This document shows, piece by piece, positions 1,037 through 48,500 of a DNA stretch of 64,000 nucleotides (the first letter of the stretch is position 1; each line of letters opens with the position of its first letter). The notes beneath the pieces were generated by a model. It saw only the letters and a list, made by a program, of their open reading frames with translations. It was not told the origin of the DNA and ran no database searches. The position numbers and the translations under genes are program-made. The stretch is from Trypanosoma brucei (lineage: Eukaryota): positions 1,344,001 to 1,408,000 of the forward strand of contig CH464491.1 in assembly GCA_000002445.1 (NCBI GenBank), in the 5' to 3' direction.

Positions 1037-3340
1037 CTAAAACACTTCAACATGCCTGTGGTTTTCATCATCTGCTTTACCATCTGTGAGATCACATCGC
1101 TGCTTGACTCTCATTGGAGTGGCGTCAGGGTGCTGAACATAAATCATTTCCCATCGATACTTCCCCATAACTGCTTTCCAATATTCATCACTTGGATTAG
1201 TGGTTGGATTTAAAAGTTTCTTCAGCATGCCAAGGAATGTTCCTGTCTTCGTATCATGCGATTCAGCAGTTGTGTACTGCAACATCACTATTGTCTTTTG
1301 TTTTCTCTGTTGTTTTTTATCCTCAGCAATTGCATCAGGGTCAACAACAAAGAAGGCATCCAAAACAGGGAAGTTAGGAAGCGCCTAGTATGCCTGAAAG
1401 AGACTTGGGGAACGTGTTATCATGCCACAACCGTCTGTAAAATCGGCAGCGTTGCCAAAGTTCAGGTATCTCTTCTGTACATGCCTCAAGACAGTGATAT
1501 TCTGCGCAACTTCCTGTTCCTCTACTCCCCTTTCGGGAAGTGGCTTGGTCATTTCGGTGATCGTACTCAACACTTTGGGAAATCCAAGTGCTTTTATAGC
1601 ATTGTACTCAAATAAAGCTGGAATTATCTCACGGGTAGGAATAAGCCCCGCCAACTGAGCTAAATTTTGAGCGGTTATTTCAGTTTCTCAATTATTCTCT
1701 TCTTTATGGATTCAGAGTGAGGTACGCATATGTATATCTCACCATTGTTTCTCCCACAGGCACGAACAATCTTCACGAGTTTGTGAGACGCGTCACTTTC
1801 CTTCCATTCGCCTTTGTTACCCACCACGCCAATATAGAGTTCACGTCGCTCATGGGATTTGATGGAATTTATTTCTTTGTCTATGTCGACCTCACGCGTG
1901 ACATACTTTGCTTCATCAAACACATAACGAAGTGAAGGTCCGACAAACTCCACACGGCTCTCATGCATCTCCCACTTTTCCCTCAACCCGACAGGTGTGG
2001 CTCCAGGATACAGCATGGGTCCAATACGTGAGAAGAAAGCCCGCATTTCAGTCATTTCCCAGCAGTTAACAAAGATACGTGTACATCTTTCCCTTTGCTG
2101 GAACCAGCTGTCAAAATTTCTCAAATTGGGTGAACTGATCAAAATGCTTCCCCATTTTGGAGCCACATCTGCCGGTGGCTGCTCGCCTTTGTTGACGAAG
2201 TCATAAATAACATAACCACGTGTATTAGATGATATAACCTTCATAAACGTTATAGCCGCTTCTTTACTGTACTCCCTAACTCTGCCAACGCCACCACCAC
2301 CAGATTTCTCAAATATATATGCGGCTACACCACGGAAGTACGCAACAACAGGCAACTCTTCCGCATCATAATGCAGTAAGTTGTAGAGTATGAAAGAACC
2401 CAAATTCTGAGATTTACCAATCCCAGGATTACCAATGGCAACGTATGATCGTGGAAAATAAAGACATCCCGGTAAAGCACGCTGTGTACGCCATAATTCA
2501 ACTCCACTCCTTACAACTTTCCATACGCGGAGCTCTTCTCTACGGGTGAATATTCTTTTGTTACTTCCGTCGGTAAACTTGGCTTATTATCACCCCATTT
2601 GAGATGTTAGAACCATTGCTTCAACTTCTTCCCTGCGTTCTGGTTTCTTCTCAACAGCTTCCTCAATTTCAGGGACAACATTAAGTTCTTCATCCTTCCA
2701 CATTACATTGCCACCACGCGTTCCATCAACAAACTCCATCCCGAGCAGTTGAGTTCCATTGTCAATTTCAATATGACTCCATTTCGCATTATAAACAGAG
2801 TCGTAAACTCCTGGAAGGTCAGCACCGTCAGCTAGTTAAATATATCGTTCCCCCGCCTTCCTGGCAATGCACCGTACCGTGTCCAACCTTGATGTCGCTG
2901 CGGAGCCAACTTGTTTCCTCATTTGGGCAGTTGCCTTCTCGCCCCACTGCCGCAGGGAGTAAATTCCATTACCGTTTAGATAGTTTATCCAACCTTGTAT
3001 TTCAGGCAACTGCTCACATATCCTTTATCGCTTAAACTGGAGGAGATTCTCTATGTCTTCAAGTAACTCGGCATCCCTAGTGTACCTTCCTGGGTTGGTA
3101 ACACACAAACTCATTGCTACATTCTTCATGTTGTTCGTGTTCAGAAAGAATTGCATCAGAAATTCGTGCAGGCTCATTTTAGCCAACGCCGCATAGTCTT
3201 CCAGAAGCACATCCTCAACCCTACTTTCCATCGTCCAGTTGGTGTCCCCTTCATTTCTCCACCACTTCTTTCTTTTTTTTCCTTGTACGGTCCCTTGGTC
3301 GTCCTTCCGAATTCACCCCACTTACGTTTCGTTCATACAT
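1037..3340 (-). pseudogene. Retrotransposon hot spot (RHS) protein pseudogene, broken into at least four frames
   Basis: Consecutive minus-strand ORF pieces in different frames (3231-3025, 2507-2325, 2403-1675, 1654-1385, 1363-1037) together span about 750 codons. The frame of the 2403-1675 piece continues upstream through a Walker A P-loop GNPGIGKS at about 2411-2433, which is typical of RHS proteins. The N-terminal piece (...NWTMESRVEDVLLE...MSLHEFLM...NPGRYTRDAELLEDI) resembles the conserved RHS N-terminus. An upstream out-of-frame ATG at 3340 suggests the original start. Confidence 0.6.
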
Positions 3341-4148
3341 GAAAAAGAGGTATCCGACACTGGCGGTTCAGGTTATCCATTGTGCTTTTCCACTAAATTA
3401 CACAGGATAAGATAGGGTGATGGTACATATTTGCTGAAGTGTAGTGATATCCATGCGCACACCCCGCGCTATCTTTGCAGGGGGTGCATCATATTCGGGC
3501 TTCGCCGCTCAGTGCAGGCACTTGGTGCCGTGGCCAGTTTTTGGTTGACCCGAAAATGGTTGTTGATGCAGCGCCGCATTAAAGTTTCTCCTTTGCTATG
3601 TGGCTGGATGGTGCGGCATCAGGAAAGCGTGCGGGCACGAGCGCCAGCACCAATGAGTTACGCAAGTCAGGTTACGCGCACTGGCTTATTTACCCCTAGC
3701 ATAAAAGTGTGGCGTGACAGAGTTACTAGTGAAAGCGACGATTTGCACCATATCTTGTAAATAGGCGATGGCCTGCGTATCTCAGAGGTGTGAAATGACT
3801 TCTATTCATGGATGTGCTGGTGGCCGCAAGCGTTGAAGCAACCTACTTCTACAGCTCTCATTCTTGTCCTACTCAAAAGACAGGACACCATCCGCTCATC
3901 GTCGAAGGCGTGGTGGAGTACGTCGCTTCCCTCGATCGTTTGTTCTTCGGTGGTGCCAGGGTCCAGTACCCCGTATCATCGGGGGAAGCCAAGAGCTACC
4001 AGTGTTACTCTCTTTTGGAACACTGCTTTGCTTAGACTACGGCATCGTACAGCACAGGGATCAGCAGCGTCTTGCTGGGACACCGTTTTTCGTTTGTCGG
4101 TCCCTGGGCACGTGCCAGCGTGCCATCAGCAGTATCATCCGCACTAAG

Positions 4149-4187
4149 ATGCTGCTGTCCGGTGATGTGGAAGAGAATCCCGGCCCA
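4149..4187 (+). other. 2A-like StopGo (ribosome-skipping) peptide MLLSGDVEENPGP at the start of the retroelement ORF
   Basis: Direct translation atg ctg ctg tcc ggt gat gtg gaa gag aat ccc ggc cca. The D(V/I)ExNPGP consensus is complete. The preceding residues (SSIIRTK) match my recollection of the 2A sequence reported for T. brucei TSR1/ingi elements. Confidence 0.85.
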
Positions 4188-7100
4188 TCATTGCGCGGGG
4201 TGCAGTGGAACTCCGCCGGGCTATCTCAAGGAAAGAGATTAGCACTCCACAAAACCCTTGTTGATGAGCGGATCGCCTTTTGTCTGTTGAGCGAGACAAG
4301 GATGAAACCTGGAGAGGCGGCTTGCTTTAGCGTTGCTGGCTACCAACATTACGGAATAGCTCGTAACTGCAAAGGAGGTCGTGTATCAATACTAGTGAGG
4401 GCGGACCTGCCAGTCGAGACCGGTATGGCCGTTGTTGGTCGCATTGAACAAGTGCATGCAACAATTCACCTTGCACGTGGAGCAGCGCTGACTGTCACGT
4501 CGGCATACATCCCACCAAAACACACCTTCACGGCAACTGACCTAGATACGCTTCTGACGACTGACGGTGCCCAGATCATCGGTGCAGACGCTAACGCACA
4601 CGCGTTGGCATGGGATCGCGCGAGCCCACCAAATACCAAGGGTGAAACCCTCACACAGTGGTGCATTGACAACCAGTTTCTGGTCTGCAACACTGGTGAG
4701 TGCACCAGGTACGCGCGCCACCAAGGGAAGTCCACCCCTGATGTGACACTGTCAAGGAATTGCACAGTGTACACGTGGACATCGCTGTATTCTCCCGATA
4801 GCGATCACCATCACATATTTTTCGACGTTATGGTTGGAGACGACACAGATGCACTGAGTTGCCCGCGGCTTCGAAAGCCCATGTGCGCATGGCTAAAAGC
4901 TGACTGGAGGAATTTCCGTCTCAAGGTTGACGAGTTCTGCAGGAAAATTGGTAGAGAGAAGAACGTCAACACCCTGGAACAGAAATTGAGCTCCGCCATC
5001 CGCATTGCGATGAAGGTCTCCGTCCCCCGTGGCTGCAGAGCAACGCCACCACATTGGACACCTGAGCTCGCGAAACTCGATGAAGAGATCACTGGATGCG
5101 GACCCTCCCACCGAAGGGAAAAGTTGGTAGCCACGCGTAAGCAGATCCTGGACCGTACCACAAAGAAGAGATGGAGCACACTATGCTCCAGACTTGCGGT
5201 GTCAGACCGCTGCAGTTGGCACATTGTCAAGAAGGTATATGCGCCACGACCACTAACCACACAGGCTGTACTTGTAGATAACGCGGCCATCACGGACTAC
5301 CGTCGAGCTGAGAGGTTCAATAAACTGTACTCGTCCCGCGCAAGAAGGCACCCCGACTCACACCCACCGGCACCAATAAAGACGATAGCGAGTGAGTTCA
5401 GTCCAATCACGATGGCTGAACTACGGAGATCGATCAAACTGCTACCGTGTGGATCCGCAGCCGGACCTGATTGCTTATACAACGAGGCGCTACAACATCT
5501 CGGTATAACAGCGCTGAATGTTGTTCTGAGGCTATTCAATGAGAGCCTACGAACGGGAGTCGTGCCACCTGCATGGAAGACTGGTGTTATCATCCCCATC
5601 CTGAAGGCCGGAAAAAAGGAGGAGGACCTCGATTCTTACAGGCCTGTGACGCCCACGAGCTGTCTCTGCAAAGTCATGGAACGCATAATTGCCGCAAGGT
5701 TTAGAGACACTGTTGAGTCCCAGCTGACGCCGCAGAAATCAGGCTTTCGCCCCGGATGCTCAACGCTCGAACAGCTGCTGCACGTCCGCGCTGCCCTCTG
5801 CCGTCCCACGCACCAATCACGTACGGGTGTTGTATTCGTCGACTACGAGAAGGCATTCGTTACTGTAGACCACGACAAAATTGCGAGGGAAATGCACAGA
5901 ATGAAGGTATCACCCCACATTGTGAAGTGGTGCGTATCATTTCTGAGTAACCGAACTGGCAGAGTGAGATTCAAGGAGAAGCTTTCCAGAAGCAGAACAT
6001 TTGAGCGAAGAGTGCCACAGGGAACTGCCCTTGGCCCAATCATGTTCATTATTGTCATGAACTCGTTGAGCCAGCGCCTTGCAGAAGTGCCGTTACTGCA
6101 GCACGGATTCTTTGCAGACGACCTAACGCTACTTGCGAGCCACACAGAGAGGGATGTCATCAACCACACACTACAATGCGGCCTAAACGTGGTGTTACAG
6201 TTGTCAAAAGACTACTTCATGTCTGTCAACGTAGCGAAAACAAAGTGCACACTCTTCGGGTGTATAGAGCGCCACCCCCTTACATTACAACTGGACGGCG
6301 AAAGAATAGGAGCTGACAGAACACCGAAGCTTTTAGGAGTAACATTCCAGTGTCTGCAAGGGATGGCAACACATGCGGCCGAAACGAGACGCAAGATGGA
6401 CTTCAGACTACTGCAGATAGCAGCCATCTCAGCTTCTACATGGGTACCAAGACGACAAGTGCTGAGAACTTTTTATCTAGCGCTCGTACAGGCACACACC
6501 ATGTATGGCATTGAGGTATGGTACTGGGACGCTTCGGAACGAAGTCGCGACCTCCTTGCATCAGCACAACACAAAGCCAGTCGCATCATAGCCGGCATAC
6601 CGCATGGGACGCGCAAAGAGGACTCTCTGCTGGAAGCAAACCTCCTGCCACTCAAGACGACCACTCTTGTGCGCAGCATGAAATTCATGCTGATGTGTGA
6701 GTCACGAGGCGGATGTTTGCGGCGCAGTGCTGAGGAAGTATACCACAGCAAACACCCAGTCAGAGTCTTACATTCCCGCATCATGCGGTCTTATCCCCAC
6801 CTCCGCATTGAGCCACGCGAGCACCCACTAGAGACATCGACGCTCCGCCACAGCTGCCGACCGCTATTTCACACGCAGATAAAGCCTGTGTGCGCTGATG
6901 ACCCTGACGATGTCAAAAGGGAGGCTTCCGAAAAGTGGATTGAACGGCATTTTGTACGGAGGGGGAAGGAGCTACCGCGGCGAGAGCACTACGAATTGTG
7001 GACTGATGGATCCGTGTCCCTCGGTGAGAAGTCCGGAGCAGCTGCCCTGCTCTATAGAAACAACACGCTGATTTGCGCACCCAAAACTGGAGCAGGGGAA

Positions 7101-7223
7101 CTCTCATGCAGTTACAGAGCGGAATGCGTAGCATTAGAGATAGGACTGCAACGGCTGCTGAAATGGCTTCCGGCATACAGAAGCACACCGAGCAGGTTGT
7201 CCATCTTCTCTGACTCGCTGTAA
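4149..7223 (+). CDS. Retroelement polyprotein segment 1: 2A peptide, AP endonuclease-like domain, reverse transcriptase, N-terminal part of RNase H; ends at an in-frame TAA
   Basis: Frame 0 is open from 3864 (TTG in the ORF track). The first in-frame ATG is at 4149, directly before the 2A peptide. RT motifs include FADD (6111-6122). TDGS of RNase H lies near 7000-7020. A TAA at 7221-7223 is followed in the same frame by the rest of RNase H. Confidence 0.8.
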   Translation: MLLSGDVEENPGPSLRGVQWNSAGLSQGKRLALHKTLVDERIAFCLLSETRMKPGEAACFSVAGYQHYGIARNCKGGRVSILVRADLPVETGMAVVGRIEQVHATIHLARGAALTVTSAYIPPKHTFTATDLDTLLTTDGAQIIGADANAHALAWDRASPPNTKGETLTQWCIDNQFLVCNTGECTRYARHQGKSTPDVTLSRNCTVYTWTSLYSPDSDHHHIFFDVMVGDDTDALSCPRLRKPMCAWLKADWRNFRLKVDEFCRKIGREKNVNTLEQKLSSAIRIAMKVSVPRGCRATPPHWTPELAKLDEEITGCGPSHRREKLVATRKQILDRTTKKRWSTLCSRLAVSDRCSWHIVKKVYAPRPLTTQAVLVDNAAITDYRRAERFNKLYSSRARRHPDSHPPAPIKTIASEFSPITMAELRRSIKLLPCGSAAGPDCLYNEALQHLGITALNVVLRLFNESLRTGVVPPAWKTGVIIPILKAGKKEEDLDSYRPVTPTSCLCKVMERIIAARFRDTVESQLTPQKSGFRPGCSTLEQLLHVRAALCRPTHQSRTGVVFVDYEKAFVTVDHDKIAREMHRMKVSPHIVKWCVSFLSNRTGRVRFKEKLSRSRTFERRVPQGTALGPIMFIIVMNSLSQRLAEVPLLQHGFFADDLTLLASHTERDVINHTLQCGLNVVLQLSKDYFMSVNVAKTKCTLFGCIERHPLTLQLDGERIGADRTPKLLGVTFQCLQGMATHAAETRRKMDFRLLQIAAISASTWVPRRQVLRTFYLALVQAHTMYGIEVWYWDASERSRDLLASAQHKASRIIAGIPHGTRKEDSLLEANLLPLKTTTLVRSMKFMLMCESRGGCLRRSAEEVYHSKHPVRVLHSRIMRSYPHLRIEPREHPLETSTLRHSCRPLFHTQIKPVCADDPDDVKREASEKWIERHFVRRGKELPRREHYELWTDGSVSLGEKSGAAALLYRNNTLICAPKTGAGELSCSYRAECVALEIGLQRLLKWLPAYRSTPSRLSIFSDSL

Positions 7224-7679
7224 ATGTTAACAGCACTGCAGACAGGCCCCCTAGCCGTAACGGACCCAATTCTGAGACGACTATGGAGGCTTCTGCTTCA
7301 AGTTCAGAGAAGGAAGGTGCGTATCCGACTGCAATTTGTGTTTGGCCATTGTGGCGTGAAACCGAATGAGGTTTGTGACGAAATGGCCAAAAAGGCCGCA
7401 GATTTACCACAGTTGCGAGACACATGGATCCCCGACATCATTGCTTATGCGAAGCGAGTGCTTAGGTCGGAAGAAGTCCATGAGAACACTCATAGGTTTG
7501 GTATCACGGGCAACCACTTTCCAACAAAACATAGGGAAGAACTGACGAGGGAAGAAGAAACGGCACTGGCACGCTTTCGGGTTGGGTCTTCAAGACACTA
7601 TGGATGGATGTTGCGAAAGATCAACCCGAGTGTAGTGTACCCTCACAGTGCCGATGGTGTAACCCGCAACATGCAGTGA
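7224..7679 (+). CDS. Retroelement polyprotein segment 2: C-terminal part of the RNase H domain (same frame as segment 1, beyond the in-frame stop)
   Basis: Translation contains VRIRLQFVFGHCGVKPNEVCDEMAKKAADLPQ, an RNase H-type signature. The frame is identical to 3864-7223 (both start positions are divisible by 3). Confidence 0.6.
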   Translation: MLTALQTGPLAVTDPILRRLWRLLLQVQRRKVRIRLQFVFGHCGVKPNEVCDEMAKKAADLPQLRDTWIPDIIAYAKRVLRSEEVHENTHRFGITGNHFPTKHREELTREEETALARFRVGSSRHYGWMLRKINPSVVYPHSADGVTRNMQ

Positions 7680-8916
7680 TAGGACCAACAATACAAACAC
7701 AAACAGCCTACCTGTTGCGACACGCACTCTTCAGAGAACCTCCGAACCGACCAAATGTACGGAGTGTGATGCCACATACCAATGCCGCTCGAGTGCTGTA
7801 ACGCACATGGTAAACAAACATGGCTTTGTGCGAGCTGATGCCCTCCGGAGGATCAAATACGGCGATGCAACACCCGCAGTGGATATCCCCCCGGAGCCCC
7901 CTCCAGTGGTGGCGATCGTTCCTCTACCATCGAGCACACGAGTCCCGATGAGACCGCAGGTGTTTCATTGTACCCTCTGTGCCTCCAAATTCGCAGTGCA
8001 AGGCCGACTATTACACCACCTTAGAACAATACATGGCATAGGCAGCGGTAGTTACCGCGTGAAAAGGGAGCGAGAGAACGAGGACTCAGTGCAAGGAGAT
8101 GGTAGAGCCCCAGCAGCGCCAGCCTCTCAGGATACACGGAAGCTGCCGTTTCAATGTGACCTGTGCGAGGCGAGCTTCGGTACACGCTCTTCCCTGTCAC
8201 TACACAAGAAATTCAAACATAAGAGCATAGTGACGGAGGACGGTACCGTGGTGGTGGTGCAATTCCCTCGTAAGCGTGCCCGTGAGGGAAACGTTGACGT
8301 CCCGGGGAAGGGCGAGGTGCAGTGCGGTGTGTGCCAAAAAGTGCTCAGTTGCAGGGACTCCCTCATCCGACACTGTAAGGCTTTCCACAAAGGTGAGGGA
8401 GTCGAGCTTAAATGCAGCAAAAGCACAAAATTGTGTTCCACGGATTCCCCGCATACAAATGCATCCATGTTGGTGTGCCCGACATGCGGAAGGCAGTGTG
8501 CTAGCAAAACTGGCCTCACCCTACATCAAAAGAAGATGTACGGTATGAAGGTAGAGCGCGCTGTTACCAGCCAACGCGGCGACTGCGAAGAAACGTCGCT
8601 GTACCTGATGAGCTGGCCCGGTTTGAAGGAGTTACGTGTCAGGTTTGCGGTAGAAGGTGTATGTGTGCAGGATGTATGCTTCTCCAAAAGGCTGGCGCAG
8701 TTTCTCATTGCGGTTGAACGGAGCCGGCCGCAGGTGAAGTCCTCACCTAAGGTAACAGTCATACAACCCACTCTCCCTTCTGCAACTTTCCCCCTTATTG
8801 CCGAGTGTGGAGCTTGCAGGAAAGGCACTGGACGCAGGAATAGTCCAGAAACCCTCAGAGACAGAGGGGGTATGCAGTCAACAAGCAACAGAAACAGAAA
8901 GAGGGGGAGAGAATAA
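7663..8916 (+). CDS. Retroelement polyprotein segment 3: C2H2 zinc-finger domain (five fingers), in a different frame from segment 2
   Basis: This frame is open from 7663 and overlaps the end of the RNase H frame (7679), implying a frameshift lesion at about 7636-7680. Fingers: CTECDATYQCRSSAVTHMVNKH (7756-7821, upstream of the ORF-track start at 7807), HCTLCASKFAVQGRLLHHLRTIH, FQCDLCEASFGTRSSLSLHKKFKH, CGVCQKVLSCRDSLIRHCKAFH, CPTCGRQCASKTGLTLHQKKMYG. Confidence 0.65.
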   Translation, partial: PATCSDRTNNTNTNSLPVATRTLQRTSEPTKCTECDATYQCRSSAVTHMVNKHGFVRADALRRIKYGDATPAVDIPPEPPPVVAIVPLPSSTRVPMRPQVFHCTLCASKFAVQGRLLHHLRTIHGIGSGSYRVKRERENEDSVQGDGRAPAAPASQDTRKLPFQCDLCEASFGTRSSLSLHKKFKHKSIVTEDGTVVVVQFPRKRAREGNVDVPGKGEVQCGVCQKVLSCRDSLIRHCKAFHKGEGVELKCSKSTKLCSTDSPHTNASMLVCPTCGRQCASKTGLTLHQKKMYGMKVERAVTSQRGDCEETSLYLMSWPGLKELRVRFAVEGVCVQDVCFSKRLAQFLIAVERSRPQVKSSPKVTVIQPTLPSATFPLIAECGACRKGTGRRNSPETLRDRGGMQSTSNRNRKRGRE

Positions 8917-9920
8917 TAAACGAATAACAAAAATCAAAACAAAAGGATTGCTAATTGACATCTTTTGGAGAGTCTGGGGTGGGGGGCTTCTCGCCCCATC
9001 TGCTGTATTCCGTTCAAATGCGGAGCTACAAAAAAAAATTATAGAGGGTGTGTTAGGATGAATAAAAAAGGGAGACTCTGCCACAGTCGCCAGACCGATA
9101 GCATCTCAGGGCTCTACGGTGATGGCTGACGGCCGTGCCAGTGGGGGGAAACTCTCCCGAAGGCACGAAGAAAATTTCAAAAAAAAAACTTGCTGTTTCG
9201 ACCAAATGAACTTTGCAGCGACATCCAGAGTGGTGACCGTTGATGCAATCACTGCCCGGAGCTGACATTGCCGGCTACCCATCTCGTGGCCTCCGGGTGC
9301 GGTGCATATGGTGATAGGACTCGGTCGATCGCTTGATTTTTAGTTGGTACGGGGTCGGCTCCGCTGCATGGTGCTGCGCGTATAGAGTTGCTCACGGTGG
9401 AGCCGTTGTTCCTCTTGCGTTGCTGATGGTGACATTTTTCGACCTTTATATTGATGGGTGAAACGATAAGACGAAAAAAAGGTGTTTGTAGCGATTGTAG
9501 TGGTGGCGCTTCTTTTTCCCCCCTATTTTTAACGGGTGTCTAATACATAGTCACTGTTTATGCTACGCTGCACTACTCTCTTCGTGCGGGCGTGAGGCAA
9601 CGTTAAGTTTCTGCTACATATGTATCGCATAGACTGATTAACAAGCTTATCATAACCTATTTATCCCTCCGTTAGAGACTTTCCTATAACGAGGCGTGAT
9701 GTTTCTATATTCTTCATGGCTCTGCAATCACCCTGTGCTATTTTTGCCCCAGATTTGCTAATGCTCACTTCTGGGAAGTATATTCCCCTCGTGGACGACT
9801 CAAATATTTCAAGAGCTGAGGGACACGGTGCTTCAACCCCTGTAACCCTCTTTACCGCTGCGCATATTTATTAATTTAGGATTTCGAGGAGCCCTTGATG
9901 TGGTATGGTATGTGTCCTTG

Positions 9921-43933: not shown

Positions 43934-46900
43934 GCTTTTTCCCCATTCCTCAACACTCTGCGGCTTGTAGTTTTTGTAGGGTCGAATGGTAACCATGTAG
44001 CATCTTTTTTTTTTCTTGTTGGTGTTGGGCGGCGACGGCGCTATAAAACGAAAACGACAGGAGACGGGGAGGGGAGTTGTGACGGAGATCGTAGGTGTTT
44101 TTTTTTCTTTTTTGTTGCCTTCGTTTGTCCTTATTGTTTTTGTATGGGAGAAGAGGAAACTACATAAACAAGTAACAAAAAACAACATGACGATGTGAAA
44201 AAAACAACAACAACTAATGAGTAGAGCACAAATGACTGACTACGAATATGAACGAAGACTCGGCTCTAGCGGTATGAAGGCGATGAAGTACTGTGAAAAG
44301 AGGAGACGTAAGGGAAACAAAAAAGAGAGAGGAATGAAAGAGGAGATTTAAGACACCATCACCAACACCAACAACAAAGAATTTCATGAGAGAAGAGGAA
44401 TAATTTATTAACAACAGGGGAAGAGGAGGAAGGAAAAATAAAATAAAATTAATCAAAAGATAAATCAAAAGATAAAAACAAACAAACAAAAAAGAAACGA
44501 ATAAAAGAACAGAATGAGGGTACTTTAAATTTAGGATTTTTGGGAAGTGATGTGGAATTCAGATGTGCCCCTCCCCCCGTATGTTTTCCCTCTCTAGTTT
44601 TTTTTTCATTTTCTCCCTTTCGTTTCTTCTTTGCGGCAACATTGGTGTCAGCTTACCTATGCAAATTTCTCCATTTTGTGACGGTTTACTTTCTTTGGGT
44701 TGCTGTTTCTTTTTTTTTTTTACTTCTGCTTTGTGTTTTGTTTCACCTTTACCATTTTCTTCCGTCTTTCTATTACGTGTCTTTTTTCTTTTTTTTTCTT
44801 TCGTCGTTTTGTTGTTGTTGTTGTTGTTGTTTTATTCGTTACGGGACGCCAAGATCAGAGTACTTTTTGCATGTTGATATGTATATTTTTATATATTTAA
44901 TTGTAAATATAGTTGTATATATACATATATACATACACATATGTGTGTGAAGCGCGTGGGGTAAAAAAAAAGAAAAAAAAGAAAGGACAATAGCCAAAGA
45001 GGGAATAAAAAAGGAAGAGAGATGAGTCACATATATGTGTATTTATATATTTATATATCTGTATATATATATATATATATATATGCGTATGTGTCTTTCT
45101 TTCTTTGTATGCCCTTGCGTGTGGTGGGAACTATTGAGAGGGCGAGTTAAATAATAAGCAGCATGAGGAAATTGAAGGTGAAATGAGGAAGAAGAAGAGG
45201 AAGAGGAACAAGGACGGAGAGGGTGAGGAATCGTGAAGACGGCAGCAAGGGAAATAATAAGAAAAAAATGAGGTAAATCAGGAGAAGGAAAGTAAATAAA
45301 TAAACACATCCGAATATGAATGAATAAAAAAAGAAAAAAAATATATATAACATTTAAACACGCAAGCAATATATTTATACGAATGTTTATGTTTATATGG
45401 AGGTTAGTGTTACTTGATGGAGCACGTGTGTGTGTGTGTGTGTGTGTTTGTTTGTTTGTTGAGGGGGAGGGGAACGCCTTCATGTTCTGTATCTGTCTTC
45501 TCTTCTCTTCTTTTTTTTTTTGTTGCGTGTGCGTGCGTGTACGTGTGAAGTTCACATGTACATGTTTTTTTTTTTCTTCGGGTAAAGGAATTTGTTTCAT
45601 TAAGCGGCCTTCAGGTACTTCATGAGAGGAACTAAATGGGGGTATGCAAATGAGAGGTGAATGTGTGGCGGGGAGCGGAAGGGGTAATGGTAATATCTCC
45701 ATTTAGTGTTTGAGGAAATCTACTGTGTGTGTGTTTTTTTGTGTGTGTAAAATATTGTGCCCTCCTTCTCGAAAGTTGCAGGTAGTTGGGTCTCTTTCAG
45801 CGTTTTTATTTTCTTGCACTCATATATTTGATTTGTTGTTTCTTTTTTCTTTTCCTCCTCCTTGTCATCACTCTGTTATTATGATTACAACTATTACTCT
45901 TATTGGTATTTTTTCCGTTTCCCCGTCAGTGCTTTCTGTTTTTTTCTTTTTTTATTCATTCCCCCCACTCCTTTCAGCCGCATTTGTTTCCTTTCCTCTC
46001 CTCTCCTCTGCGCTTCTTGTTTCTCTTCTTTTCCCTCTTTACCATATTTTATTTAATAACAACTTTACGAAATGCATTATTCACAAATGCCGCTATTGCT
46101 CTTCTTGTGTTTGTTTTCTGCTTTACTTTTTATTTTGTTTTTTTTTCGTTTCTTTTTTTTTGTTTTCCCGTAACTTCCACCTCACCACCCTCCACCTCCT
46201 CCTCCACCTCCTTTTCTTCTTTTTCATTTTCCTCCAGTCGATTACGTGCTTCGAATGATAGTTTGAAGAAACGGCGAGCAATTTGTGTTGCCGCCGTCGT
46301 GTTATGTTCAGCTTTTTAATGTCGGTAATTTATTGACTCATTCACCCGCTTTTCCTCTTCCTTTTCCTTTTTTTTTTACAAATGCATATGTGTATTTGTA
46401 TTGCACTGTGCTTGTGCATATACATATGTCTCATCATGTTTGTTATTATTACTTTGGTTATTACTCCCACTACCATACACACTCCCCTCCCTCATTATTA
46501 CTACCCTCAAAACCCGAATCGTGAAGAAAGTTAAAAAAAAAAAATAAACACACAATAAAAAAAAAAGAAAAAAGAGAATTAAGACAAAGAAACAAAAAAA
46601 GAAAGACGACAGGAAAGAAAAGTAAGGGTCGAAACAAAGAAAGCGAAGAAAAACAAAAAAAAAAGAGAAAGATTTAAAAGAAAAACAAAAGAGACAAAAG
46701 AAGAGAAGAGGTGATTAAACAAATTGCCGCGTTTTTGTTGCTCTTGTGTACGTGTGCAAGAGTGGGTGGGGAGGGACTGCATAGGTGGTGACTTCACCTC
46801 CTCCCTTATGATGTTCAACCTTGTAATTTCTAACTTATTGATGTTTATTCTTGGTTGATTGGTATCTGTTGTTTCACACTCTTTCCATCCATGCAACTTT

Positions 46901-47858
46901 TTCTTTCCATTCTCTTTCATTCTTATTCTTATTCTTGATCTTTTTTTTTTTTTGAGTCTATTTTGTGTATACTTGTGTTTGTGTATGGAGGCACTTGTGC
47001 AATGACCACCGTGGCATCTCCGTGGTTGCATATGCGCGCTTGTAACATTCATTAAACATATATGTGAGTTTTACTATTAGTGAAGGAGTAAATAAAAGGA
47101 AAAAGGGATGTAAAGGTGGGGACAGTAGTCCTTCCAGTTGCAAGTGTGTGGTGTCTTTAATTTTGGTATTTCTGTGCGTAATGTAGTGCGCAGAGGAGTG
47201 TGTGTGTGTGTGTGTGTGGAAGCATTTGCATCAGCATGGAAAAATGATATTAAATAGTTCTCTCATATTGTATCATTAATGGATGCGCGGATTTACTCGC
47301 AGTGGGTTAAAAATGATCTGACCTCTCAAGTCTGGAGGTTATGGAGCTTATTTGATCTCGGAAGAAAGTTGAGTGTTTTATTCCTGCACTTTTAGGGTCA
47401 CTGATTCTCAACGTATCACGAGGATGTGGAGTCCTAGAAGACATTAGTTGATTGTTTTTTTTTTTCCTATAAATAAATATATATGCTCTTCTGTTTGTCT
47501 ATTCGCTTTGATGGTGTGCTCGTTAACAACGCGTCGCTCGTTTTTTTTCTTTCGCCCGTCATTACATTCTTATTCTTTTGATTTTTTGTTCCTTCCTTTC
47601 TTCTTTTACTGACGTTTACCCTCCACCCCCCCCCCCCACACACACACATCCACCACGCTGTTGTTAATTGAATCAGTGGGGGAAAGGTGGAAAGGTAAAA
47701 AAAAAAAAAGAGAACAAACGAGAGGAGACTGCAAAGGCACGCTGCGTCTCCTTCTCAGCGTTCGTACGTGACAATTTCTTTCTCTTCTTTCAGCACAGGT
47801 TTAAACGGGAAAGAGAGAGAGAGAGTCTCAAAAGTTTGCAGCGTACGTGCAGATTCCA
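43934..47858. repeat. 3.9 kb low-complexity intergenic spacer with alternating homopurine and homopyrimidine blocks plus microsatellites
   Basis: Block structure read off the plus strand. A/G-rich at 44190-44520, 45150-45400 and 46497-46740. C/T-rich at 44560-44880, 45700-46500, 46800-46960 and 47540-47650. Embedded repeats: (GTT)n 44808-44832, (TA)n 45062-45084, (GT)n then (GTTT)n 45426-45460, (TG)n 47199-47218, C13 at about 47626-47640, (GA)n 47812-47825. All ORFs here are low-complexity translations. Confidence 0.8.
47551..47660 (+). promoter_or_regulatory. Long polypyrimidine tract upstream of the TFIIS-like gene (candidate splice-acceptor signal)
   Basis: cattacattcttattcttttgattttttgttccttcctttcttcttttactgacgtttaccctccaccccccccccccacacacacacatccacc, about 200 nt upstream of the ATG at 47859. 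Confidence 0.45.
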
Positions 47859-48500
47859 ATGGGTAAGGATTCCAATGATGGGAAAATAGGCGTAAAGCGC
47901 TTCAGAGAGGAGTCCAAAACGGCTTTGGGGGCACCCACATCGCCTCCGGTGACACCCAATTGTATAAATAACACATCTGTCACAGTGAGAAATATTGAGG
48001 GAAGACAAGGGGACACCCGCTTAACAAAGTGGAAAACGCTGTTATGCAAAGCACTCATGCAAGGACGGAAAGAAGAGGATGAGGGACGTGTTGCGGATAT
48101 GGCGTTGCGTATTGTAAAGGCTATTCCGGGCGGGCGCTCAGAGTCCGCTGACACATTCCGTATGTTGTTAGTTCATTTGGGTGATGCTAAAAATAGGGAA
48201 CTTCGAGAGAGTATTATTGAAGAAAAGTTTAGTGTGGAGGTTTTGGTGCGTATGAAAGAGAGGGATTTGTTGAATCCCGAAGAGCGTGAGCGCCAGGAAG
48301 CGGCCTTCTTGGCACGTAGCAGGGATACGGATCTAACAGAAATACGGAAAGCGACGTCCACCACTTCTACCCTCTTTCCTTGTCCATCTTGTAAGGCCAA
48401 GAACTGTACTTGGACACAAAAACAGACACGATCAGCCGACGAACCGATGACTATATTTTGTATCTGTAATATCTGTGAGCACAAATGGCGTCGCTATTAG
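47859..48500 (+). CDS. Transcription elongation factor TFIIS-like protein (C-terminal zinc ribbon)
   Basis: The ORF track start 47847 is GTG. The first ATG is at 47859. The C-terminus CPSCKAKNCTWTQKQTRSADEPMTIFCICNICEHKWRRY (48381-48497) matches the TFIIS C4 zinc ribbon, including the RSADE acidic loop. Confidence 0.7.
   Translation: MGKDSNDGKIGVKRFREESKTALGAPTSPPVTPNCINNTSVTVRNIEGRQGDTRLTKWKTLLCKALMQGRKEEDEGRVADMALRIVKAIPGGRSESADTFRMLLVHLGDAKNRELRESIIEEKFSVEVLVRMKERDLLNPEERERQEAAFLARSRDTDLTEIRKATSTTSTLFPCPSCKAKNCTWTQKQTRSADEPMTIFCICNICEHKWRRY

What the first reader, a model, noticed from the sequence alone, without database searches (positions are those of the whole stretch)
4149..4187. Viral-type 2A StopGo peptide as the first 13 codons of the retroelement polyprotein
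The sequence shows MLLSGDVEENPGP, the complete D(V/I)ExNPGP ribosome-skipping consensus. It begins at the first in-frame ATG of the ingi-type ORF, with AP endonuclease directly downstream. 2A-like sequences are known at the N-terminus of trypanosome L1Tc/ingi elements, and this one matches what I recall for the T. brucei TSR1/ingi 2A. If translation starts at 4149, the skip between G and P would release only a 12-aa leader, so essentially all product would be the downstream endonuclease-RT. That arrangement can tune ORF translation. The frame is also open for 95 codons upstream with no ATG, so trans-splicing position may determine whether an upstream leader exists.
Basis: partly seen in the sequence, partly recalled or inferred. 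Interest (0 to 1): 0.55.

Follow-up and report, generated by a model that had tools for sequence, protein, structure and literature searches.

The report
Known ingi 2A in truncated copy
The ribosome-skipping "2A" peptide is really there, but it is the already described 2A of the Trypanosoma brucei ingi retrotransposon, and it looks like the first 13 codons only because this dead copy has lost its first 25 bases, which hold the normal start codon 72 codons upstream.

Summary
Window 4149-4187 (+) encodes MLLSGDVEENPGP, in frame with an AP-endonuclease/reverse-transcriptase ORF. About 7e-5 such motifs are expected by chance per window.

The window is T. brucei brucei TREU927 chromosome 11. The element (3950-9188) is a Tbingi copy, 95% identical to three T. 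b. equiperdum copies. Its 20-residue 2A, SSIIRTKMLLSGDVEENPGP, is identical in four other T. brucei-group ingi proteins, including one from TREU927. The papers I read describe 2A sequences in ingi/L1Tc as known and as active in earlier tests.

Full-length copies start CCCTGGCGATGCC, with an ATG at element nt +9. That ATG opens an 84-residue leader (MPATSTWCQGPVPRII...NPG), so this Met is codon 73 and the skip falls at G84/P85. Sixteen annotated proteins from T. brucei, T. grayi and T. theileri carry that start. Met73 is Leu or Ser in the T. grayi and T. theileri copies.

The window copy begins at element nt 26. It lacks the start ATG, the 5' strand of helix P1 of the HDV-like ribozyme, and the CCACC and intact CGTG promoter motifs. 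It also has an in-frame stop (7221) and a frameshift.

Published cDNA data show that ingi transcripts are not trans-spliced.

Verdict: already known, low interest.

The parts
4149..4187 (+). Core of the ingi 2A StopGo peptide, MLLSGDVEENPGP. The skip site lies between Gly (GGC, 4182-4184) and Pro (CCA, 4185-4187). These are codons 73-85 of the canonical ingi ORF.
   Evidence: codon numbering from the alignment to full-length copies
4128..4187 (+). The 20-residue 2A, SSIIRTKMLLSGDVEENPGP, identical in four other T. brucei-group ingi proteins
   Evidence: identical string in P0025, P0027 (TREU927), P0034 and P0036
3951..4148 (+). Remnant of the ingi N-terminal leader coding region, codons 7-72 (WCQGPVPRII...SSIIRTK). 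Codons 1-6, including the ATG, are missing.
3950..4003 (+). Truncated Pr77 / 76-79-bp signature, element nt 26-79. It keeps the 3' strand of ribozyme helix P1 (GCCAGGG, 3955-3961) and the P4 hairpin. It lacks nt 1-25: the transcription start and cleavage site, the P1 5' strand CCCTGGC, the +9 ATG, CCACC at 16-20, and the first base of the CGTG element at 25-28.
   Evidence: motif positions from PMC4748587
3950..9188 (+). Tbingi retrotransposon copy of 5239 nt, 5'-truncated by 25 nt, about 95% identical to three T. b. equiperdum copies. It is a pseudogene.
4203..4808 (+). AP endonuclease domain (Pfam Exo_endo_phos / Exo_endo_phos_2)
5616..6347 (+). Reverse transcriptase domain (Pfam RVT_1)
7221..7223 (+). 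In-frame TAA that interrupts the polyprotein. Further stops lie near 7677-7682, and a frameshift precedes 7807.
7224..7679 (+). RNase H fragment of the polyprotein, in the same frame as the upstream ORF
7807..8916 (+). C-terminal C2H2 zinc-finger region, in a different frame
9179..9188 (+). A10 tail at the 3' end of the element
3938..3949 (+). Possible decayed 12-bp target-site duplication, GTTTGTTCTTCG. Its partner CTTGCTGTTTCG lies at 9189-9200. 7 of 12 positions match, and 2.3% of background 12-mers match that well.
   Evidence: 12-bp TSD rule from PMC3820030
3547..3918 (-). Decayed AP-endonuclease coding relic of an older ingi-related (DIRE-like) element, in inverted orientation. It makes up part of the open upstream frame.

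Best explanation
Window 4149-4187 is the C-terminal core of the known 2A ribosome-skipping peptide of the T. brucei ingi (Tbingi) non-LTR retrotransposon. It sits in a 5'-truncated, mutationally dead copy on TREU927 chromosome 11.

In an intact element the single ORF opens at an AUG at element nt +9, inside the Pr77 promoter / HDV-like ribozyme region. The ribosome translates an 84-residue leader. At ...NPG(84)|P(85) the Gly-Pro bond is skipped, the leader is released, and translation either carries on from Pro85 to make the AP endonuclease-RT-RNase H-zinc finger protein or stops, which lowers its yield.

Shown here: the motif, its frame, the element anatomy, the position of the canonical start, and the truncation of this copy.
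Taken from the literature: 2A activity and the promoter and ribozyme functions.
Inferred: that AUG +9 is the start codon used in vivo.

In this copy nt 1-25 are absent, so the Met inside the 2A is the first ATG only by default. With no full promoter or ribozyme, an in-frame stop and a frameshift, no functional product is expected.
For: - Motif and frame.
- Organism: four downstream proteins are exact matches to T. b. brucei TREU927 entries.
- The element is 95% identical over 5.24 kb to L001, L002 and L004.
- The window matches only from query nt 26.
- Full-length copies begin CCCTGGCGATGCC with unrelated upstream flanks, and L004 has a perfect 12-bp TSD, TTCTCACAATGC.
- In those copies CCACC at nt 16-20 and CGTG at nt 25-28 fall exactly where PMC4748587 places them in Pr77.
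- P1 (nt 1-7 with nt 31-37) has two compensatory pairs in T. grayi.
- Sixteen annotated proteins start or continue with MPAT..W, and none of those that start there has another Met before the 2A region.
- There are no indels from the ATG to NPGP between T. brucei and T. grayi.
- The 2A segment shows dN/dS of about 0.2-0.35.
- Literature: ingi and L1Tc 2As are reported active and lie 40-80 aa from the N-terminus (PMC3708506). Upstream context raises L1Tc 2A efficiency (PMC5814959). The transcripts are unspliced (PMC1874656, PMC3820030).
Against: - No experiment in the papers I could read maps the ingi initiation codon.
- An AUG 8 nt from an uncapped or 5'-OH end is an unusual start site. The L1Tc literature calls this region a 5'-UTR and suggests IRES-like entry (PMC3383444).
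- L1Tc reads GAG, not ATG, at nt 9-11 (primer sequence in PMC1874656), so the +9 start is not universal in the clade.
- Promoter activity of the ingi 5' end was not detected in T. brucei (Garcia-Salcedo 2003, as cited in PMC1874656).
- Substitutions in leader codons 27-65 show no third-position excess, so the sequence comparison gives no positive evidence that the leader is selected as a protein.
Confidence: 0.85

Rival explanations
1. Translation starts at the AUG at 4149, so 2A is the extreme N-terminus. StopGo releases a 12-residue peptide, essentially all product is endonuclease-RT, and this tunes expression.
For: In this copy there is no ATG in any frame for 288 nt upstream. All T. brucei-group copies keep ATG at this codon. 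Gene callers start there when the upstream frame is broken (P0001 and P0023). An AUG 8 nt from the 5' end could be skipped by leaky scanning.
Against: - Codon 73 is Leu or Ser in the T. grayi and T. theileri copies, which nevertheless keep the 2A. The 2A is therefore maintained where it can only be reached from upstream.
- Canonical T. brucei-group copies have the +9 ATG, plus an out-of-frame ATG near nt 89 (TTTCATGGGG in L001, L002 and L004) that scanning ribosomes would meet first.
- A 12-residue nascent chain lacks the upstream context said to be critical for 2A activity (PMC3708506).
- This copy is truncated and carries a stop and a frameshift.
Confidence: 0.06
2. A complementary role. The main job of 2A is to separate endonuclease-RT from whatever was translated upstream. 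That may be the leader peptide, whose sequence is dictated by DNA/RNA functions (promoter, ribozyme, 5' structure), or a host ORF that reads into the element after an in-frame insertion.
For: Differences in leader codons 27-65 are spread evenly over codon positions (for example 17/16/14), against 43/31/82 in the endonuclease (Fisher p = 0.002-0.012). Synonymous sites are more conserved in the leader (codons 27-72) than in the endonuclease (pS 0.46 against 0.78). P0040 and P0042 are GP63-like host ORFs fused in frame to the leader up to NPGP, and P0041 and P0002 have upstream extensions.
Against: Only four cross-species sequence pairs were compared, and most copies are decaying pseudogenes. The fusions are gene-caller products, not shown proteins. 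No test of leader function exists. The published proposals differ: down-regulation of ORF2p, or release of an ORF1-like function (PMC3708506, PMC3894237).
Confidence: 0.3
3. The motif is a chance match with no relation to 2A.
For: None beyond the short length of the motif.
Against: The expected number is 6.7e-5 per window. The motif sits at the same place in homologous elements of three trypanosome species. The papers I read report ingi and L1Tc 2As as active in earlier assays (PMC3708506).
Confidence: 0.01

Closest known systems
Tbingi 2A-like sequence of T. brucei ingi (Donnelly et al. 2001 and Heras et al. 2006, as cited in PMC3708506)
   Same: Same element family, same organism, same position upstream of the AP endonuclease. 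The 20-residue sequence is identical to other T. brucei-group ingi copies.
   Different: Nothing in the peptide differs. This copy has lost element nt 1-25, including the start codon, and is a pseudogene.
L1Tc2A of the T. cruzi L1Tc retrotransposon (Heras 2006; reviewed in PMC5814959)
   Same: A DxExNPGP motif at the 5' end of a single-ORF element with APE, RT, RNase H and zinc fingers, downstream of the Pr77 / HDV-like ribozyme region. A proposed role is to lower the endonuclease yield.
   Different: Different subclade (ingi6 against ingi4; PMC3820030). L1Tc has GAG rather than ATG at nt 9-11 (primer in PMC1874656). From memory, its 2A reads ...LLLSGDIEQNPGP, with no Met at position -12.
Viral class A 2A peptides, such as Thosea asigna virus T2A and limnipivirus 2As (table in PMC11512398)
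   Same: The C-terminal GDVEENPGP is identical to that of T2A (from memory). The Leu-rich stretch before Gly resembles ...RLLLSGDVEQNPGP of limnipiviruses.
   Different: It is cellular retroelement sequence, not viral polyprotein. It releases a short leader rather than separating two functional proteins.
TbRIME, the non-autonomous partner of ingi
   Same: It shares the first ~245 nt, that is the leader coding region and the start of 2A (P0041).
   Different: The internal deletion junction falls after ...MLLSGDV, so RIME lacks NPGP and cannot skip.

Membership tests
2A / StopGo peptide (class A) | C-terminal D(V/I)ExNPGP motif | tested here: met
   DVEENPGP at 4164-4187
2A / StopGo peptide (class A) | Suitable upstream context of about 10-20 residues, which is critical for activity | tested here: met
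   SSIIRTKMLLSG is encoded in frame upstream and is identical in four other T. brucei-group ingi proteins. The requirement itself comes from PMC3708506.
2A / StopGo peptide (class A) | Reached by ribosomes that started well upstream, so that the nascent chain fills the exit tunnel | tested here: not met
   This copy has no ATG upstream in any frame. The feature is met in canonical copies, where ATG +9 lies 72 codons upstream.
2A / StopGo peptide (class A) | Demonstrated peptide-bond skipping | not testable with these tools
   PMC3708506 states that trypanosome Ingi and L1Tc 2A-like sequences had previously been tested and found active. This exact copy has not been assayed.
Tbingi (ingi4 subclade) non-LTR retrotransposon | Domain order APE - RT - RNase H - C2H2 zinc fingers on one strand, about 5.2 kb, with an A-tail | tested here: met
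   (5239 nt, A10 tail)
Tbingi (ingi4 subclade) non-LTR retrotransposon | High nucleotide identity to other Tbingi copies | tested here: met
   94.9-95.2% over about 5240 nt to L001, L002 and L004
Tbingi (ingi4 subclade) non-LTR retrotransposon | Complete 76-79-bp 5' signature (Pr77) | tested here: not met
   Only nt 26-79 are present
Tbingi (ingi4 subclade) non-LTR retrotransposon | 12-bp target-site duplication | tested here: inconclusive
   7 of 12 matches at the junction, against a 2.3% background rate. This is below the 65% identity used for vestigial TSDs in PMC3820030.
Tbingi (ingi4 subclade) non-LTR retrotransposon | Single uninterrupted ORF (a potentially active copy) | tested here: not met
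   TAA at 7221-7223, stops near 7677, and a frame change before 7807
HDV-like ribozyme of the L1Tc/ingi Pr77 hallmark | P1 helix formed by element nt 1-7 with nt 31-37, with cleavage 5' of nt +1 | tested here: not met
   The 5' strand is absent from the window copy. P1 is present in full-length copies, with compensatory changes. Rfam has no matching family.

The most novel reading that the evidence does not exclude
The 84-residue ingi leader may have no protein function at all. It would be the unavoidable translation product of a 5' region whose sequence is set by promoter, ribozyme and RNA-structure needs, and 2A would exist to discard it (or any host-ORF fusion) so that the endonuclease-RT starts cleanly at Pro85. 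A second reading is less likely, at about 0.06. In it, the T. brucei-specific Leu-to-Met change at 2A position -12 gives 5'-truncated copies like this one a back-up start codon.
Probability: 0.3. Interest if true: 0.35.

Novelty: already known. Interest (0 to 1): 0.1.

Why it matters
It matters little for discovery. 2A sequences in ingi and L1Tc have been known since 2001-2006 and are part of the standard description of these elements.

The useful outcome is a correction. A 2A at the very N-terminus would be mechanistically odd, because the nascent chain would be too short. Here the oddity disappears once the copy is recognised as 5'-truncated. Gene callers make the same mistake (P0001, P0023).

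The question that remains open is where, and how, ribosomes initiate on the unspliced ingi RNA, whose canonical AUG lies only 8 nt from the 5' end and inside a ribozyme.

Tried and rejected
1. I first took CCCTGGGC at 4102 for element nt +1, by analogy with L1Tc's CCCTGG. This was rejected: homologs are conserved much further upstream, and full-length copies place +1 about 177 nt earlier.
2. An Rfam search of 3800-4500 at E<=10 gave no hit, so no curated family covers the L1Tc/ingi ribozyme.
3. Full-text searches for the exact peptide strings SSIIRTKMLLSGDVEENPGP and SSIIRTK found no paper. SGDVEENPGP hit only a picornavirus table. Heras 2006 (PMC11136212) and Bringaud 2009 (PMC2756862) are not held.
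4. I tried to fetch the orthologous locus through the downstream PDK protein, to look for an empty site. That protein is not on record.
5. One tblastn used a mis-framed translation and was repeated correctly.
6. One TSD comparison was off by one base and was redone.
7. The T. brucei ingi4 insertion signature (GTxGGxT upstream of the TSD; PMC3820030) fits L004. By eye it does not fit upstream of the window junction, so I make no claim from it.
8. The profile search reached no T. cruzi, T. congolense or T. vivax proteins, so L1Tc, Tcoingi and Tvingi starts were not compared.

Full report
**Observation.** The + strand reads ATG CTG CTG TCC GGT GAT GTG GAA GAG AAT CCC GGC CCA at 4149-4187, which translates to MLLSGDVEENPGP. 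It lies in the frame of a long ORF (3864-7223) with Pfam matches to Exo_endo_phos_2/Exo_endo_phos and RVT_1. RNase H (7224-7679) and C2H2 zinc fingers (7807-8916) follow. This is the only D[V/I]ExNPGP, and the only NPGP, in the six frames of the window. About 6.7e-5 such motifs are expected by chance, and 300 shuffles produced none. There is no ATG in any frame from 3861 to 4148. The frame is open back to a TGA at 3834.

**Where the window comes from.** Four proteins encoded downstream are exact matches to Trypanosoma brucei brucei TREU927 entries on a 5.26-Mb contig: a PDH kinase, a clathrin coat assembly protein, a PP4 regulatory subunit and a DEAD/H helicase. From their accession series I take this to be chromosome 11. 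The element sits at the head of a long + strand gene array. Upstream lie an RHS pseudogene on the minus strand (1675-2403) and an inverted, decayed endonuclease relic of an older ingi-related element (3547-3918).

**What the element is.** Window 3950-9188 (5239 nt, ending in A10) is 94.9-95.2% identical over its whole length to three T. b. equiperdum ingi copies that I fetched, L001, L002 and L004. It is a Tbingi copy and a pseudogene. It has an in-frame TAA at 7221-7223, further stops near 7677, and a frame change before 7807.

**The real 5' end and start codon.**
- I first suspected that CCCTGGGC at 4102 was the element start. Homologous proteins showed conserved sequence far upstream of the 2A, MPATSTWCQGPVPRII...SSIIRTKMLLSGDVEENPGP.
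- The three T. b. equiperdum copies all begin CCCTGGCGATGCCGGCCACCTCAACGTGGTGCCAGGG, and their upstream flanks are unrelated to each other.
- L004 is bracketed by a perfect 12-bp duplication, TTCTCACAATGC. This is the TSD length reported for Tbingi (PMC3820030).
- With that numbering, CCACC falls at nt 16-20 and CGTG at nt 25-28, as described for the Pr77 promoter (PMC4748587).
- Nt 1-7 (CCCTGGC) pair with nt 31-37 (GCCAGGG). Two of those pairs change on both sides in T. grayi. This fits helix P1 of the HDV-like ribozyme reported for this region (PMC3185411, PMC4035085).
- The ATG at nt 9-11 opens the ORF. The Met of MLLSG is codon 73, and the skipped bond is G84/P85.
- Sixteen annotated proteins from T. 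brucei (TREU927, gambiense, equiperdum), T. grayi and T. theileri contain this MPAT..W start. Those that start there have no other Met before the 2A region.
- No indels occur between the ATG and NPGP across T. brucei and T. grayi, at about 73% nucleotide identity.

**Why 2A looks N-terminal here.** The window copy aligns to the canonical element only from nt 26, which is window 3950. The 25 nt before that are unrelated. The copy therefore lacks the transcription start and ribozyme cleavage site, the P1 5' strand, the +9 ATG, CCACC and the first base of CGTG. The 12 nt abutting the junction match the 12 nt after the A-tail at 7 of 12 positions, and 2.3% of background 12-mers match that well. 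This is suggestive of a 5'-truncated insertion but is not proof. Of the 104 open upstream codons, 66 (3951-4148) are leader codons 7-72. The rest is flank that happens to be open, part of it antisense to the old relic. Codon 73 is Met only in the T. brucei group. It is Leu or Ser in T. grayi and Leu in T. theileri, so it is not a conserved initiator.

**How it most likely works.** In an intact ingi, ribosomes start at AUG +9 and translate the 84-residue leader. They skip the Gly84-Pro85 bond and release the leader. They then either continue, making endonuclease-RT-RNase H-zinc finger protein that begins with Pro, or fail to continue, which lowers the downstream yield. That lowering is the role proposed for L1Tc (PMC3708506, PMC3894237, PMC5814959).
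- The motif, the frame and the anatomy are shown here.
- Skipping activity comes from the literature.
- Use of AUG +9 in vivo is inferred from conservation.

The 20-residue SSIIRTKMLLSGDVEENPGP is identical in four other T. brucei-group proteins, including one from TREU927. The 2A segment shows dN/dS of about 0.2-0.35 between species. This particular copy, lacking its 5' end and carrying a stop and a frameshift, is not expected to make anything.

**A side result on the leader.** Between T. brucei and T. grayi, differences in leader codons 27-65 are spread evenly over codon positions, for example 17/16/14. In the endonuclease they concentrate at third positions (43/31/82; Fisher p = 0.002-0.012 in four pairs). 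Synonymous sites are more conserved in the leader, measured over codons 27-72 (pS about 0.46 against 0.78). The leader thus looks constrained as nucleic acid rather than as protein. This fits the idea that 2A serves to discard it. Some annotated proteins are host ORFs (GP63-like) fused in frame to the leader up to NPGP (P0040 and P0042), and 2A would also release the endonuclease from such fusions. The sample is small and most copies are pseudogenes, so this remains a hypothesis.

**Uncertainties.**
- The initiation codon of ingi has not been mapped in any paper I could read.
- An AUG 8 nt from an unspliced, possibly 5'-OH end is unusual, and IRES-like entry has been suggested for L1Tc (PMC3383444).
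- L1Tc has GAG at nt 9-11 (primer in PMC1874656).
- Promoter activity of the ingi 5' end was not found in T. brucei (cited in PMC1874656).

**Verdict.** The motif is real. It is the already described Tbingi 2A. The claim that it forms the first 13 codons is an artefact of a 5'-truncated dead copy. Novelty: already known. Interest: low.

Noticed in passing
window 4149-4172 and 8941-9048; protein P0041 (T. b. gambiense): A RIME-encoded ORF (P0041) runs through the ingi leader to ...MLLSGDV and then jumps to the ingi 3' region. The RIME internal-deletion junction therefore lies inside the 2A motif, and RIMEs carry the leader but no NPGP.
   Followed up: partly
window 3547-3918 (-): A decayed AP-endonuclease coding relic (31% identity over 147 aa, with stops) of an older ingi-related element lies head-to-head against the ingi 5' junction. 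The ingi appears to have landed in or beside an older element.
   Followed up: partly
window 1675-2403 (-): This ORF matches the Pfam RHSP family (retrotransposon hot spot protein P-loop domain, E = 2e-48). It looks like an RHS gene fragment or pseudogene upstream of the ingi, on the opposite strand from the downstream gene array.
   Followed up: no
L001 5993-6072, L002 2486-2565, L004 7045-7124; window 3950-4003: The ingi start codon (nt 9-11) and the first ~26 codons lie inside the Pr77 / HDV-like ribozyme region. P1 (nt 1-7 with nt 31-37) shows two compensatory pairs in T. grayi. The same ~79 nt are thus promoter, ribozyme and coding sequence.
   Followed up: partly
leader codons 27-65 (window 4011-4127) compared with the endonuclease (4188-4562): Substitutions between T. 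brucei and T. grayi show no third-position excess in the leader but a strong one in the endonuclease. Synonymous sites are more conserved in the leader. This suggests nucleotide-level rather than protein-level constraint.
   Followed up: partly
proteins P0040 (T. grayi) and P0042 (T. theileri): These are annotated proteins with a GP63-like (Peptidase_M8) N-terminal part fused in frame to the ingi leader and 2A. They suggest in-frame insertions into host genes, where 2A would release the element's protein.
   Followed up: no
L002 and L004, alignment A2 column 221 (about element nt 191): Two T. b. equiperdum copies share a 1-nt insertion (GTGTCTAGCG and GTGGCTAGCG) that frameshifts the leader and creates a TAG. 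L002 also has a mutated 2A (DVEKNTGP).
   Followed up: no
window 44001-48000: G+C content drops to 0.36-0.39 against about 0.48 elsewhere, in a stretch that has no ORF of 250 aa or more.
   Followed up: no
window 4200-4202: The Met five residues after the skip site (GMQWN) is kept in nearly all T. brucei-group, T. grayi and T. theileri copies retrieved. It is Val (GTG) in this copy. It lies at the start of the endonuclease domain.
   Followed up: no
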